From Mytilus edulis (taxonomy: Eukaryota), in NCBI RefSeq assembly GCF_963676685.1, contig NC_092352.1:51274001-51338000 (forward strand): a DNA stretch of 64,000 bases. Direction: 5' to 3'. Of the stretch, positions 3,001 through 18,000 are shown in pieces. Made by a program: the position numbers. Every line of letters starts with the position of its first letter. The stretch's first letter is position 1.

Positions 3001-6000
3001 AACTGTTACATGAAAGACTTTTTCAAAGATTATAATAATTGATAGAAGTTCAACTTAGTATAAATGGTATTTGATTCCAATAATTAAGAACATTTTGAAA
3101 TATCATACTGGTCTTCTGCTTTCCCGCCATTGAAATGATCGTACGTGTCTTGGTTTTCTGAATCCGACCTGTAACAACTTGTAGAATCATATACCGTATC
3201 GACAGTATGACTGTAAATGTTGTTTGTAGATTTTTTATGTCGATTGTCACGTGATGAATCATACACGCCTTCTTCAGAAAGACCATATGTATCATCTGTT
3301 AGATATGTTGTGCTATCAAAGCTTGTTTTATCCTGACTCGTATTCACTGGTTGGGCAAGTTCATATTGCTGCTCAGTTTTGGTTTTATCTTCAGATCTGT
3401 TGTAACCCGTAATTTGTGGATCTAAAACTAAGTAGTTGTTTGAAGCAGCATCGTTAGATATCATCTTAGAAGTATAACCTTGTTCAGTAGATGGTTCAAC
3501 AGTAGCATAATCATAATTTAAATTTGTCTGCTTTAAATCTTGTTTTCTACCAGAAACGTCACTGTTTGTGAGGTTTTGGTATGGATAATCGGTAGTCTTT
3601 TTTAAATCCAGGTACGTATTGTTAAGATGGCCAGTCCCACGTGCCATTTCATCATTTTGAGATGTAGTATAACCATCCTTTGGTTCTTTCCGTTTGCTCG
3701 ATCCAAAAAACCTTAAATATTTGAAAAAAAATCGTATTGTTTTACATTATTATGATTGAACAAACTTTATGGATCGTAAAACTTCAATTTATTTCTTGGT
3801 TATACATGCTAATACACATGATGGTAATTAGAGAATATTGTGATGTGAATAAATTATTCCTTTTTTCTTTTCCCAGTTAGTATTTTTTTCAACTTTTTAT
3901 ATTGGCGAAAGAACAAAGAATTTACCTGTATTATTTTACCTTATGAAGTGACGAAATGGTACAATTAAAAGTTTTAATCGTAGAGATTGAATCTATTGAA
4001 TATTGAGAATTTAAGTTCCATGTAAAAAGTAAAATCACAAAAGTACAATACCTTCGAATGAATATAAAAGTAACAACCAGAACAAGTATAACCAATACCA
4101 GACCCACAACAAGTCCAATAACCATTCCTGAAATAAAGTCCAAAAATATTTAACATATACATGTACTAGTATATCATTCTTATCTTTCCTTTTCAGATTG
4201 TCACCTTTATTATGTATGTTTAGCTATGTTCATAACATCGCGAGCTAAAATTCAAAGTTTTATGAGAAAAAAAATCTAATAGTTTGAGATAACACGACGG
4301 GTGCCACATGTGGAGCAGGATCTACTTACCCTTCCGGAGCACCTGAGATCACCCCTAGTTTTTGGTGGGGTTCGTGTTGTTTATTCTTTAGTTTTCTATG
4401 TTGTGTCGTGTGTACTATTGTTTTTCTGTTTGTCTTTTTTATTTTTAGCCATGGCGTTGTCAGTTTGTTTTAGATTTATGAGTTTGACTGTCCCTTTGGT
4501 ATCTTTCGTCCCTCTTTTGAGATAACAATTTGTCTTCACTTAAACCGAGCCCAATCTAAGTTTATACGTAAGGTGATATGTTATAGGATATTTTTAATGT
4601 TGCATTGGAGATTTGAAAGTTGTGTCCAAAACTACTTTCAAGAAATAAAAAAGGGCATCATGTTCATCAAATATACTCTACGATACGATCCGAGTAAGTT
4701 GACCCTTTACATGAGATTGTTCTAAAAGGTTGTCAATTCAAAACAGTAATACGATCTATGAATATTGTTCTAAAGGTGTCAATATTGATTGTTAATGACT
4801 AAATATTATTTTTATATACATACGCACATTCACAGTTATACAATCTGTCGATACCGGTATCTTGACATTGCCCAATGTTTTTATCTAAATGTTAAAGGAC
4901 GTCTTTCTTCTAAATACATTTGATGCTGGGTGAATACTGATTGACATTTGTGTATTAGATATATATTTTTTGTACTGGTTTGTAGTTGTAATTAGCAGGG
5001 AACTAGCTGCCAGTAACTGCGAATACTCTCAGATCTGTTCTTAATTTCTTGTTTTTGGCTTTCATTAATACCCTGTCACGTCCTGTCTGTATATTCACGG
5101 CTAAATATTTTGAAATATGTCAAGGAAAAATAGCTGTGTATCAAAAGTTTTGTAGAGTGTCACGCAGCCTAATATTCATGAAAGGGGATGTAACTGCCTA
5201 AAAATGGTATACGTGAATACCAAGGTGATAATTTCAAGAGTAAAGTTGTCAATTCAAGATTAAATGTGTTAATTCCAAGATTAAAGTTGTTCATTCCATG
5301 ATTAAAGTTGAAAATCTCAAGATTAAAGTTGATTATTCTAAGATAAACGTCGACAATTTCAAAAAACAAATGGTCCGGATAAGCTCATGTTTTAAAATGA
5401 GCCTTCGGTTTAAAAAAAATGTATCGCGACTTGAAAGTCTACAACACTACACATAACTAGTACCTATGTCATTACTGTCTTCATTTGTAAACGTTGACGT
5501 TGTTGCATTGGTTACCACAATTGCGTCTGTAAAAAGAGAAGATGTTTTACAGGATTACCTTCTGTTGCTTAATACTGAATGTTACTCAAGTTCCGTCATA
5601 TTTTAGGACTTTATATATGGCAATACCGTTATATCGCTCTTTAATTTGTCAGTCAGGCTTATCATCGTTGTACATTGTTTTCCTGTATGAAAGGGTCGTG
5701 AATGTTCGCTTCGTTTACACTATCGCCTTTTATTTAAAATATGGCTCCATTTGAATTATTTATTATTCGTTATATGAGAAATATTTTGGGAGACCTAATT
5801 CTGCTTGTTTCCTATTAAATCGGTTGTTCGCTTCTACTTTTTTTTTAAAGTGATTTATAACTAATCCTGCTGTCATAGGTACATCGTATGATTTGACAAA
5901 GTTGTGTTATGCTAAATGCTTAGTTGCCGTTAATACATGACAACGGTACAAGGAAAAACAAAAAAACTAATCAAGAGGACAGAACATGTTTTTGATAATT

Positions 6001-15000: not shown

Positions 15001-18000
15001 TCGGGTTGTTGTCTCTTTGACACATTCCCCATTTCCATTCTCAATTTTATTCTGAAATCGACTTAATTTTCGAGAAGTTACATAGACTTTGTATAGATAT
15101 ATTTTCAATCCACAATATACTAGGTGTATTGATATATTCATGATATTGCAGATGGAGGATTTCTATCCGATGCAACACATATGTAAAGCTGCTCTTCTTT
15201 ATGGATAATACAAATGTTAGGCAACAATAAAAGTACTTACTGACATATTGGTCGGCAAATGAATTAATAAATGTACAATTAATAAGAATAAATGCACAAT
15301 GTTTGAATTGAATCATATTCCTTTTATGTAGGTTGTTTGTTACACCAACATGACCAATGAGGAAGTTAAAAGTCGTAAATATTAAACGTAAACAAATTAG
15401 TATTGATTGTTAGCCATGCATAAAAACATTGAATTATCGTTAAAAACGGGTACCTGTAAAGTGCGAAACGAAATAGAAACGTATTAGGACAAAACGAAAC
15501 GAAACGAAATGTCTTATAATACAACATGTTTGTGTGTTTCAGAGTTTGCATGCATCCGGTTTTCATAGTTTTACTTGGAACAAATCAAATAAAACCGGCA
15601 GAGGGATGAAGGTTTATTTTCAGGGGAGGGGTCGTACATACTTGTGTTTACTGCCTATAAAGTGTTAAGTTTCACACGTCGTTTTGAATGAATTTTTTTT
15701 TTTACGGTAAAATATTACCATAGAAAGAAAAGGGGTGGTACACGGTAACACCTGATATATATAATATAAATGAGACTATATTTCAGAACTGTGATATTGA
15801 GGACACGCACGTGGTCACAATCTAGATCAGGGGTCCTATGACTAACTTAATGAAGATGCATTTATGTATGTATACACAGACGTTCCGCTGTAATGGATGC
15901 ACTTGTATACTTAAATTATGTTAGTAGCATATACTTAATTTCAGAGAGGTCAAATACCAATTGGTCAGTAATTTTCATCCTCCGAATTATAATAGTTGTT
16001 TGTTTAAATGCTGCTTTATCATTTTTATTTTAATCATATATTAGTTTCTCAATACTTGTACTTGGATGGAGAGTCGTCTCATTGGCACTCATACCACATC
16101 TTCTTATTTATATTGTATAATACATTATAATTACTGATAAAACTATGAATGGGTCATGATTTTGTCATCAGAAACATATTAAGTGTCGTGATTTTTTTCC
16201 AAGGTTTTAATTTATGATTTTGTTTTTGTTTTCAAAGCTACTGTACTTGAAAGTTTTTGAAGCAAACCATTTCAATCGTATTGTTATATTATGCGTTTTA
16301 TCAATAAGGTTTTCGTTATTTCGCAAATGTTAGCGTTAACAGATGAGACCAAAAATCGTATAAATGTGCATATGATAAATGATACTTTTGTTTCTGTATA
16401 TCTAGTTTTCACTACGTTTGTTATAGATCCATGCTCACCATTTATTCCTTGGCCATATCTTGCATTTTGGCGGTTTTCATCTTCAATTTGCAGTTTTATT
16501 TGGCTGCAGTAACTATTAAGCATATTAAGTTTGCTCCAACCCAAGCAACATCTGCATATGTGCCATACTTATTTGTTTGTGAAATAATGAGGTTTAACAG
16601 TTGAATAAAATATCACTGGAAATACTGTCACTTAAGACTAACCTGTATATATAGTAGACCAAGAAGGAAAACTGTTCATTTAAATTTTTATCAAAAAAAG
16701 AATCTTTGAATTATTGATAATCCCTGAAATCACAATTTTATTAGGGAATTTGTAGAATAAAAAATAAAATGTTCAGTGATTATGTAAAATCACTAGTAAT
16801 TTTCAGGGATTATATTTAATCACTATAATGATTTTAGTTATTCTACATACAATGTAATCACTGATATATCAGGGATTCTACATGCCTAATCCCTGATGAT
16901 ACAAATTCACTGTAACAATATATTTATAAAGGTGCATATCACGTATGTTTACATCATTGTTGTTTTCTGACCAGTAAAATTGTCATAAAACTTATCTGGT
17001 GCATCTACATGTATCTCCTCTACAAAGTTATACTTAAATAAGGCCGTTAGTTTTCTCGTTTGAATTGGTTTACATTGTCATTTCGGGGCCTTTTATAGCT
17101 AACTATGCGGTATGGGCTTTGCTCATTGTTGAAGGCCGTACGGTGACCTATCGTTGTTAATTTCTGTGTCTCTTGTGGAGAGTTGTCTCATTGGCAATCA
17201 TACCACATCTTCTTTTTTTATATATATATATATACTCGTATTTAGCAGTCTGTGCCAAACAAAAACACTTATACAGTTACTATCTTACTTAACTCCGAGG
17301 TTGTATCAACTATGAAATATGTATAGATGACCTGCTCGTTATTGCCTTATTGAAAAATATAATTGAAAAGTGTGTTAATGTGGTCGTCACGGAACTCAAT
17401 GCTCAATATAACAGTAACCGGAACATGAAATTTGACCTAAGAGCAAAGAAAAGAATGCAGTTAAATGGTTACAAAATGTTGATTATGGCTATTCAAATGT
17501 TCCTTTACCGCATTTTTCTGCATCAGCAGACTGTATTAATGCTATATCCATTCAGATTATTAAGTGTAGTTTTACGCACACTCGTGAAGGAAAGGAGATT
17601 TGAACCCAAGATAAAATTCATTTCATATATTTCAGTTCACACTGTCTTTCCCTATACTGATACATATAAAAACATTCAGCGAGGACATTTAAGTTGAGAT
17701 AGTGAAAAAAATATTGATTTCGTTTCATTTCGTTCCGTTTTGTTCCGTTTCTATTTCGTTTCAAACTTTACAAGTACCCCCTCCCCCCTTTTTCCCCTCC
17801 AAAAAAAACTCCGTTGTAATTTATAAGTGTCACATTTGGTTTTCCTTTAGACAGAATTAAAAACTTTTTTTGATCCTACAAACAGACCTAGAACATAAAG
17901 AAGAACGTCGATATATTTAATCTCGGAACATCATACACTAGTTTTATTTGGCAATATGTTACTTAAAAAATTAGGATACTCCACTCGCTGTTGAAATTTG

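What the first reader, a model, noticed from the sequence alone, without database searches (positions are those of the whole stretch)
3084..15316. Candidate orphan immune-type receptor: unusual FReD-like ectodomain, TM and Tyr-rich tail
Seen: five phase-compatible GT-AG exons (15241-15316, 9040-9714, 5464-5526, 4052-4127, 3084-3711) total 1518 nt, i.e. 505 aa with no stop. The ectodomain starts like a fibrinogen-related domain (SC.E......SG.Y.I.......VYC) and then continues in sequence I cannot assign (YLFLGFLP, FTNCDANPNSY, FEMHMGGCGG). Known: mollusc FReD proteins are mostly secreted pattern-recognition lectins. Inference: a membrane-bound signalling receptor with a poorly described recognition domain.
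Basis: partly seen in the sequence, partly recalled or inferred. Interest (0 to 1): 0.75.

Follow-up and report, generated by a model that had tools for sequence, protein, structure and literature searches.

The report
Single-pass membrane protein, unassigned ectodomain, tyrosine-rich tail
An intact five-exon gene model in a transposon-rich invertebrate-type window appears to encode a cell-surface protein whose outer domain only faintly resembles the fibrinogen/collagen-propeptide/GON group and whose inner tail is full of tyrosines, which is mildly unusual but unproven without RNA or relatives.

Summary
All five minus-strand segments are open in the stated phases. All four introns are GT..AG, and the model runs from ATG 15316 to TAA 3084. 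The two long exons exceed chance: 258 and 220 open codons against a maximum of 174 in 100 shuffles. The membrane exon is one of only 2 strongly hydrophobic stretches in all six frames of the window.

The parts read as a signal-peptide-like exon, a 225-codon ectodomain, a short glycosylated stalk, a TM helix and a 208-aa tail with 18 Tyr.

The ectodomain meets no curated family. Only its first 32-49 residues are weakly recognised, by COLFI (E 0.054) and by a fibrinogen-like N-terminal motif model (E 0.021), both below cut-off. Language-model neighbours are GON/COLFI/Fibrinogen_C clusters and an unnamed mollusc cluster. That is a lead, not membership.

The tail carries one ITAM-like core, YxxL-x7-YxxL, reached by 1.9% of shuffles.

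"Immune" is unsupported. Exon 1 and the exon 2-3 junction are unverified. My verdict is a plausible receptor of modest interest.

The parts
15241..15316 (-). Exon 1: ATG plus a 25-codon signal-peptide-like segment. It has a short basic start, a hydrophobic core and a small-residue S-F-A before the predicted cut. It ends in phase 1 at a GTAAGT donor. This is the weakest part of the model.
   Evidence: Translation; ATG and donor. I listed 130 ATG-to-GT phase-1 candidates on the minus strand of 9715-26000. This one combines a 9-aa hydropathy maximum of 2.36 with the best donor among the hydrophobic candidates. No SignalP was available.
9040..9714 (-). Exon 2: a 675-nt phase 1-1 exon encoding the whole globular ectodomain (224 whole codons). 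It has 4 Cys at residues 2, 30, 144 and 204, and 4 N-x-S/T sites.
   Evidence: The enclosing frame is 258 codons against a maximum of 174 in shuffles. No family reaches threshold. Atlas neighbours are GON/COLFI/Fibrinogen_C clusters.
9623..9709 (-). N-terminal Cys-to-Cys loop (Cys2 to Cys30) with the S-G-x-Y and V-Y-C motif. This is the only stretch that fibrinogen-like and COLFI profiles recognise.
   Evidence: Translation. COLFI PF01410 scores E 0.054 for residues 1-49 against profile positions 32-82 of 233, and E 0.086 on the first 50 aa. NCBIfam NF040941 (fibrinogen-like YCDxxxxGGGW) scores E 0.021 for residues 1-32. All are below the curated cut-offs.
5464..5526 (-). Exon 3: a 63-nt phase 1-1 cassette encoding a 20-codon Ser/Thr/Asn-rich stalk with one N-x-T site. 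Skipping it would keep the frame.
4052..4127 (-). Exon 4: transmembrane helix, Gly/Val/Leu/Ile-rich, with mean hydropathy 3.49 over 19 aa. It runs from phase 1 to phase 2.
   Evidence: It is one of only 2 stretches with KD >=3.0 in six frames of 64 kb.
3084..3711 (-). Exon 5: cytoplasmic tail of 208 aa plus TAA. It starts with a basic cluster (positive-inside). Its composition is T 25, S 24, D 23, Y 18 and N 17. It has no hydrophobic segment and no family match.
   Evidence: The enclosing frame is 220 codons against a maximum of 174 in shuffles. There are no tandem repeats in it.
3570..3614 (-). ITAM-like core in the tail (tail residues 33-47): Y-x-x-L, 7 residues, Y-x-x-L. The second Tyr is also a Y-x-N site.
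   Evidence: Shuffles of the tail reach at least one such motif in 1.9% (spacing 6-8) or 4.4% (spacing 6-12) of 20000 trials.

Best explanation
An intact minus-strand gene encodes a type I single-pass membrane glycoprotein.

Shown by the sequence:
- a signal-like first exon;
- one 225-codon exon for a compact, 4-Cys, N-glycosylated ectodomain;
- a short Ser/Thr stalk;
- a very hydrophobic TM helix followed by basic residues;
- a 208-aa tail that I infer from its composition to be disordered, with 18 tyrosines, most of them flanked by Asp/Ser/Thr.

Inferred, domain: the ectodomain is a divergent member of the fold group that includes fibrinogen-C (FReD), the fibrillar-collagen C-propeptide (COLFI) and the GON domain. 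It keeps the N-terminal disulphide loop of that group and has diverged elsewhere. It belongs to a so far unnamed family found mostly in molluscs and cnidarians.

Inferred, mechanism:
1. The ectodomain binds an extracellular ligand, either a glycan or matrix/cell-surface protein or a particle.
2. Binding clusters the receptor.
3. Src-type kinases phosphorylate tail tyrosines.
4. The ITAM-like Y-x-x-L-x7-Y-x-x-L pair recruits a tandem-SH2 kinase of the Syk/Shark type. The Y-x-N site and the other phosphotyrosines recruit SH2/PTB adaptors.
5. This drives adhesion, engulfment or activation.

In that sense it works like Draper/CED-1-type or hemITAM-type recognition receptors. Whether its role is immune is open.
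For: Gene model:
- The frames are open and the introns are GT..AG.
- The two long frames are beyond all 100 shuffles.
- The TM exon is one of 2 such stretches in the window, and it lies on the right strand between the ectodomain and tail exons, with matching phases.
- Exons 2 and 3 are phase 1-1. From general knowledge, that is the class typical of shuffled extracellular modules.
- No Pfam domain is hidden in 10 intronic ORFs.

Domain:
- Two independent profiles weakly recognise the first 32-49 residues: COLFI at E 0.054 and the fibrinogen-like motif model at E 0.021.
- The atlas best hit scores 0.94 with 179 of 256 shared features. It is a cluster labelled GON 62% / COLFI 15%.
- Further named atlas rows are COLFI, GON or Fibrinogen_C. 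All ten of the best named hits share a family or clan.
- The C-terminal part alone still lists GON/COLFI clusters, at 0.88 and 0.87.

Tail:
- It has 18 Tyr in 208 aa.
- It has one ITAM-like core, which 1.9% of shuffles reach, and 4 NxxY, which 4.5% of shuffles reach.

Precedent: a bivalve ITAM-to-Syk route has been reported for oyster CgIgR (PMC6994640, passages read).
Against: - No RNA evidence exists for any junction.
- Exon 1 is chosen on hydropathy and donor quality only.
- No family reaches a curated cut-off. GON and Fibrinogen_C profiles give no hit at all at E<=10.
- The middle and C-terminal pieces match nothing.
- The atlas 'recognition' value of 1660 is below the 2300 reached by 91 in 100 proteins of known families. 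The tool also says a third of shuffled proteins get ten concordant hits.
- The top hits for the C-terminal part are unnamed clusters with low shared counts of 128-141.
- The ITAM-like core lacks the acidic residue at -3 of the consensus quoted in PMC6994640. It was found after testing nine motif patterns, so 1.9% is not a clean probability.
- The tail has no ITIM and no NPxY.
- The single-sequence AlphaFold2 model is unusable, at pLDDT 33.9.
- There is no paralogue in the window.
- The locus sits among transposons.
Confidence: 0.45

Rival explanations
1. There are two products or two loci. Exons 1-2 make a secreted protein of about 276 aa, because reading through the 9040 donor adds 26 codons and stops at 8960. 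The stalk/TM/tail exons would then belong to an alternative isoform or to a different, incompletely seen gene.
For: The frame of exon 2 stays open 26 codons past the donor, to a stop at 8960. The 9040 donor, GTACGT after exon ...CT, is not the strongest. The second-best atlas neighbour is a mostly molluscan cluster whose representative is 272 aa, about the size of the read-through product. The intron from exon 2 to exon 3 is 3.5 kb, and I have no junction evidence.
Against: The stalk, TM and tail exons have no signal peptide or ectodomain of their own. No Pfam domain was found in the minus-strand ORFs between 5527 and 9039 (4 of the 10 ORFs). The phases match exactly (1-1, 1-1, 1-2). The TM stretch is one of only 2 in the window. 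The 272-aa length of a cluster representative says nothing certain about its architecture.
Confidence: 0.2
2. It is a silent or decaying gene copy, or a chance-compatible chain of real ORF relics in a transposon-rich region, and it is not an expressed receptor.
For: The rest of the window is dominated by an LTR retroelement, LINE reverse transcriptases, and THAP, GIY-YIG and helicase fragments. Interspersed repeats lie in the introns and just downstream of the stop. No expression data are available. Exon 1 is weakly supported.
Against: The 1518 nt contain no stop or frameshift, and all four introns are canonical. The exons do not overlap the repeat families found. The domain order (signal, domain, stalk, TM, basic cluster, tail) is what a real type I protein has.
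Confidence: 0.12
3. The ectodomain is an ordinary fibrinogen-related (FReD) lectin domain, so the gene is simply a membrane-anchored FREP.
For: The N-terminal loop resembles the fibrinogen-like YCDxxxxGGGW motif model at E 0.021. One atlas row is a cluster with Fibrinogen_C on 27% of its members, and another has it on 69%.
Against: Pfam Fibrinogen_C gives no hit at E<=10 for the whole exon or for any of six pieces. PDB holds many FReD structures, yet phmmer finds none of them. The better atlas rows are GON/COLFI.
Confidence: 0.05

Closest known systems
GON domain (Pfam PF08685; C-terminus of ADAMTS9/ADAMTS20/C. elegans GON-1) and stand-alone 'GON domain-containing' proteins
   Same: The best language-model neighbour (0.94, 179 of 256 features) is a 188-aa cluster with GON on 62% of its members. 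Its size, about 200 aa, is similar, and it is extracellular.
   Different: The GON profile gives no hit at E<=10. The 24 listed papers that mention the GON domain are almost all on ADAMTS-family proteins (GON-1, ADAMTS9/20 and relatives); from listings and abstracts, none describes a GON-like domain on a membrane receptor (listing). There the domain is the C-terminal end of a secreted protease and acts in ER-to-Golgi transport (PMC3338439, abstract and passages). Here it would be the N-terminal head of a membrane protein.
Fibrillar collagen C-propeptide (COLFI, PF01410)
   Same: The first 49 residues align to profile positions 32-82 of 233, the Cys-loop with the S-G-x-Y and V-Y-C motif. The remaining length is compatible with the rest of the profile. 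COLFI labels occur on several atlas neighbours.
   Different: The score is 13.2 bits against a cut-off of 26.2. Nothing beyond position 82 matches. There is no collagen triple-helix exon upstream. Whether it trimerises was not tested.
Fibrinogen-related domain proteins (FReD/FREPs, PF00147)
   Same: The N-terminal motif is weakly like the fibrinogen-like YCD...GGGW model. The size is similar and the domain is extracellular. From general knowledge, mollusc FREPs are recognition lectins.
   Different: There is no Fibrinogen_C profile hit and no PDB FReD hit. In the passages read of PMC12074976, every mention of 'transmembrane' concerns Dscam and none concerns a FREP.
ITAM-bearing invertebrate receptors (oyster CgIgR; Drosophila Draper)
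   Same: It is a single-pass receptor with a tail carrying Y-x-x-L/I, a spacer and Y-x-x-L/I. CgIgR is reported to recruit Syk through such a motif (PMC6994640, passages). Draper's ITAM/Shark and NPxY/Ced-6 signalling is recalled, not read here.
   Different: The ectodomain is neither Ig nor EGF/EMI (no such Pfam hits). There is no acidic residue at -3 of the first Tyr, and no NPxY. Binding to any kinase is untested.

Membership tests
Fibrinogen_C / FReD (PF00147) | Match to the curated profile at or above its gathering score | tested here: not met
   No Fibrinogen_C row at E<=10 for the whole exon or any of six pieces.
Fibrinogen_C / FReD (PF00147) | N-terminal disulphide loop ending in the Y-C-D...G-G-W motif | tested here: inconclusive
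   NF040941 hits residues 1-32 at E 0.021, 14.8 bits against a cut-off of 30. Cys2 and Cys30 and V-Y-C are present, but the G-G-G-W run is not.
Fibrinogen_C / FReD (PF00147) | C-terminal ligand/calcium-binding subdomain | tested here: not met
   The middle and C-terminal pieces give no fibrinogen-type profile or PDB hit. The motif itself is recalled and was not checked residue by residue.
COLFI (PF01410) | Match to the curated profile at or above its gathering score, over most of its 233 positions | tested here: not met
   13.2 bits against 26.2. Only profile positions 32-82 are covered. On the first 50 aa the score is 12.6 bits.
GON (PF08685) | Match to the curated profile at or above its gathering score | tested here: not met
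   No GON row at E<=10. The only link is language-model neighbour clusters labelled GON on 62%, 67%, 15% and 24% of members.
Fibrinogen-C/COLFI/GON fold group | Shared three-dimensional fold | not testable with these tools
   The single-sequence AlphaFold2 model has pLDDT 33.9 with no residue above 50, so no fold search was run.
Type I single-pass membrane protein | N-terminal signal peptide | tested here: inconclusive
   Exon 1 has a hydrophobic core (9-aa maximum 2.36) and S-x-A before the predicted cut. No signal-peptide predictor was available. Other candidate first exons exist.
Type I single-pass membrane protein | One hydrophobic helix of about 20 residues followed by basic residues on the cytoplasmic side | tested here: met
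   Mean hydropathy is 3.49 over 19 aa. It is one of 2 such stretches in the window. Arg, then Arg from the split codon, then a Lys/Arg cluster open exon 5.
ITAM-bearing immunoreceptor | Y-x-x-L/I, 6-12 residues, Y-x-x-L/I in the cytoplasmic tail | tested here: met
   Tail residues 33-47, spacing 7. At least one such motif occurs in 1.9% (spacing 6-8) or 4.4% (spacing 6-12) of 20000 shuffles.
ITAM-bearing immunoreceptor | Acidic residue three positions before the first Tyr (consensus as quoted in PMC6994640) | tested here: not met
   Asn is at -3 (context list). The consensus was read.
ITAM-bearing immunoreceptor | Phosphorylation-dependent binding of a tandem-SH2 kinase (Syk/ZAP-70/Shark) | not testable with these tools
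   This needs a bench assay.
Draper/CED-1/MEGF10-type engulfment receptor | EMI/EGF-repeat ectodomain and an NPxY motif in the tail | tested here: not met
   No EGF or EMI Pfam hit in the exons or in 10 intronic ORFs. There are 0 NPxY.

The most novel reading that the evidence does not exclude
This gene stands for an undescribed class of invertebrate surface receptors. In it, a highly diverged fibrinogen-C/COLFI/GON-type head, normally found on secreted lectins, collagens or proteases, is wired directly through one TM helix to a multi-tyrosine, ITAM-like signalling tail. The recognition module and the Syk-type signalling module would then sit in a single chain.
Probability: 0.2. Interest if true: 0.6.

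Novelty: new variant of a known kind. Interest (0 to 1): 0.38.

Why it matters
From general knowledge, recognition proteins of the fibrinogen-related group in invertebrates are treated mainly as secreted lectins. How their binding is passed into the cell is poorly understood.

A membrane-anchored relative with its own phosphotyrosine tail would give a direct, testable link from binding to signalling. It would also attach a function to an unnamed domain family seen in molluscs and cnidarians.

If the model is wrong, with two loci or a silent copy, the finding reduces to one more uncharacterised secreted domain protein among transposons.

Tried and rejected
Searches that found nothing:
- Pfam on the whole exon and on six pieces, at E up to 10. 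Nothing appeared beyond the sub-threshold COLFI hit. The other rows (GBD_T9SS_assoc, Kunitz, DUF4396, FSAP_sig_propep) are chance-level.
- NCBIfam on the tail: nothing.
- PDB sequence search with the whole exon, the first 80 aa, the last 80 aa and the first 40 aa. It returned only unrelated chains at E 0.16 or worse, or none.
- tblastn of every exon piece against the window: no paralogue.
- Scan of prokaryote genome contigs with exon 2: 37 pattern matches, of which 0 were confirmed as relatives. This was expected for an animal gene.
- Rfam and tRNA scans of the window: 0 and 0.
- AATAAA count: 189 observed against 186 expected, so it cannot place a poly(A) site.
- A bacterial promoter scan near exon 1: at shuffle level and irrelevant to a eukaryote.
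- Tandem repeats: none in the exons, and none in the GC-skewed block at 30-37 kb.

Structure:
- Single-sequence AlphaFold2 on exon 2 gave pLDDT 33.9. I therefore ran no fold search. I left the second fold job unused because no alignment could be built.
- I did not use complex prediction, because I make no binding claim that it could test.

Literature:
- 'GON domain' with 'fibrinogen': 0 papers.
- 'GON domain' alone: 25 papers, 24 listed, almost all on ADAMTS-family proteins; from listings and abstracts, none describes a GON-like domain on a membrane receptor.
- Searches combining COLFI, FReD, transmembrane, ITAM, and bivalve or mollusc gave no paper on a membrane-anchored FReD/COLFI/GON-like receptor among those listed. 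The passages read in PMC12074976 and PMC9835746 concern other proteins.
- Supplements were closed and may hold gene lists that I could not see.

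
Full report
**Scope and limits.** The window has no N. The large homologue searches, two sequence collections and paper supplements were closed. Whether close relatives exist, and what they look like, stayed unchecked.

**Observation.** All five minus-strand segments are stop-free in the phases the model implies.
- Exon 1 gives 25 codons from ATG.
- Exon 2 gives 224 whole codons, exon 3 gives 20 and exon 4 gives 24.
- Exon 5 gives 208 codons, then TAA at 3084.

The four split codons, read from the exon ends printed, are AGT, TAC, GGA and AGG. 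The total is therefore 505 aa plus stop, as claimed. All four introns are GT..AG. Only the dot spacing of the N-terminal motif is slightly off: the gaps are x9 and x8, not x6 and x7.

**More than chance?**
- The frames holding exons 2 and 5 are 258 and 220 codons long. In 100 dinucleotide-preserving shuffles of window 1-20000 the longest frame averaged 117 and never exceeded 174.
- Across all six frames of the 64 kb, only 2 stretches reach mean hydropathy of 3.0 or more over 19 residues. One is exon 4, which sits on the right strand between the ectodomain and tail exons.
- Exons 2 and 3 are both phase 1-1. From general knowledge, that is the class typical of shuffled extracellular modules.
- Exon 3 could be skipped without breaking the frame.
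- Ten intronic ORFs carry no Pfam domain, so I see no missed domain exon.
- The exons do not overlap the interspersed repeats found in the introns and downstream of the stop.

**Weak points of the model.** Exon 1 is one of 130 ATG-to-GT phase-1 candidates upstream. It has the best donor (GTAAGT) among the hydrophobic ones and a signal-like layout, but its hydrophobic core is modest, and a more hydrophobic candidate with poor donors lies at 18465. The exon 2 frame also continues 26 codons past its donor to a stop at 8960. A secreted read-through product of about 276 aa is therefore possible. No junction can be verified without RNA data.

**The ectodomain.**
- The 224-aa exon has 4 Cys (residues 2, 30, 144, 204) and 4 N-glycosylation sequons.
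- No curated family reaches threshold.
  - Pfam on the whole exon gives nothing meaningful.
  - The first 80 and first 50 residues hit COLFI at E 0.054 and 0.086, covering profile positions 32-82 of 233.
  - NCBIfam's fibrinogen-like YCDxxxxGGGW model hits residues 1-32 at E 0.021.
  - All three hits are below cut-off.
- The middle and C-terminal pieces match nothing.
- Four PDB sequence searches find no related chain.
- The protein atlas gives the only broader lead.
  - The best neighbour scores 0.94 with 179 of 256 shared features. It is a 188-aa cluster labelled GON on 62% and COLFI on 15% of members.
  - The second neighbour is an unnamed, mostly molluscan cluster of 56 members with a 272-aa representative.
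  - The other named rows are COLFI, GON or Fibrinogen_C, and the ten best named hits agree in family or clan.
- The tool's own caveats apply to that lead.
  - The recognition value of 1660 is below the level most known-family proteins reach.
  - A third of shuffled proteins also get ten concordant hits.
- Residues 85-224 alone give unnamed cnidarian clusters first (0.92) and GON/COLFI clusters at 0.88 and 0.87.
- The single-sequence AlphaFold2 model is unusable, with pLDDT 33.9 and no residue above 50. I ran no fold search.

My reading is that the domain is a diverged member of the fibrinogen-C/COLFI/GON group. It retains that group's N-terminal disulphide loop and belongs to an unnamed family. 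This is inference, not demonstrated membership.

**The tail.**
- Exon 5 opens with a basic cluster after the TM helix.
- It is rich in T, S, D, Y and N, with 18 Tyr in 208 aa, and it has no hydrophobic segment, no repeats and no family match.
- It holds one ITAM-like core, Y-x-x-L, seven residues, Y-x-x-L (window 3570-3614).
- Shuffles of the tail reach such a motif in 1.9% (spacing 6-8) or 4.4% (spacing 6-12) of 20000 trials.
- I tested nine patterns, so this is suggestive only.
- The acidic residue at -3 of the consensus quoted in PMC6994640 is absent.
- There are 4 NxxY (4.5% of shuffles), 1 YxN, 0 ITIM and 0 NPxY.
- An ITAM-to-Syk route in a bivalve receptor has been reported for oyster CgIgR (PMC6994640, passages read). 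The proposed mechanism therefore has a precedent in the phylum suggested by the atlas neighbour.

**Most likely mechanism (inferred).** The protein is a type I surface glycoprotein. Its head binds an extracellular ligand, and clustering allows Src-type kinases to phosphorylate the tail. The ITAM-like pair recruits a Syk/Shark-type kinase, and the other phosphotyrosines recruit SH2 or PTB adaptors. The output would be adhesion, engulfment or activation. It would work like Draper-type or hemITAM-type receptors without belonging to those families, since it has no EGF/EMI or lectin domain and no NPxY. Nothing shows that the role is immune.

**Rivals.**
- A secreted two-exon product plus unrelated downstream exons (0.2).
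- A silent or relic locus among transposons (0.12).
- An ordinary FReD lectin with an anchor (0.05). This one is disfavoured because the Fibrinogen_C profile and the many PDB FReD chains are not hit at all.

**Novelty.**
- The search of 'GON domain' with 'fibrinogen' returned 0 papers.
- 'GON domain' alone returned 25 papers, of which 24 were listed, almost all on ADAMTS-family proteins; from listings and abstracts, none describes a GON-like domain on a membrane receptor.
- Four searches combining COLFI or FReD with transmembrane, ITAM, and bivalve or mollusc listed no paper describing such a membrane receptor. I judged this from listings and abstracts, plus passages in two papers.
- The atlas neighbours suggest the domain family already sits unnamed in sequence databases.

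I therefore rate the finding as a new variant of known kinds (a known fold group and a known tail logic in a combination I did not find described). My confidence is moderate and the interest is modest.

**Surroundings.** The rest of the window is mostly mobile-element sequence:
- an LTR retroelement at about 43.9-50.2 kb;
- LINE reverse-transcriptase ORFs at 59.4-64 kb;
- THAP, GIY-YIG and helicase fragments.

There are no RNA genes.

Noticed in passing
window 43946-50166: LTR retroelement on the + strand. Terminal direct repeats of at least 185 nt are 98% identical (43946-44130 and 49982-50166). Its ORFs carry DUF1759 (gag-like), RVT_1, Integrase_H2C2/rve and DUF5641. A 300-nt piece of the gag region (44406-44705) is repeated at 97% identity at 48761-49060, where it interrupts the integrase region.
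   Followed up: partly
window 59416-63999, minus strand: Two runs of reverse-transcriptase (RVT_1) ORFs typical of non-LTR retrotransposons. The second runs off the window end.
   Followed up: partly
window 26979-27398 (-), 42497-42976 (+), 53727-54152 (-): Isolated ORFs with a THAP domain (E 2.9e-9), a GIY-YIG nuclease domain (E 4.9e-7) and a Helicase_C fragment (E 6.7e-12). They are probably pieces of further mobile elements.
   Followed up: partly
window 2718-2926 and 4308-4518; 511-599 and 10112-10200; 12918-13029, 16067-16109 and 17100-17218: Interspersed repeat families at 78-93% identity lie in the gene's introns, just downstream of its stop codon and upstream of exon 1. None overlaps an exon.
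   Followed up: no
window 11270-11386 and 5222-5362: A perfect 59-nt tandem duplication sits in intron 1. A 21-nt minisatellite of about 6 copies at 76% match sits in the intron between exons 3 and 4.
   Followed up: no
window about 13000-13500: A G+C-richer block inside intron 1 has overlapping open frames of 116 and 115 codons on opposite strands. It has no Pfam domain, no Rfam match and no tRNA.
   Followed up: partly
window 32001-36000: GC skew is strongly positive (+0.21 to +0.22) over 4 kb, unlike the rest of the window. There are no tandem repeats there, and the one 134-codon ORF (34543-34947) has no Pfam hit.
   Followed up: partly
window 18373-18465, minus strand: This is the only other strongly hydrophobic stretch in the window. 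It is preceded by an ATG but followed only by poor GT donors. It could be an alternative first exon or a chance product of AT-rich sequence.
   Followed up: no
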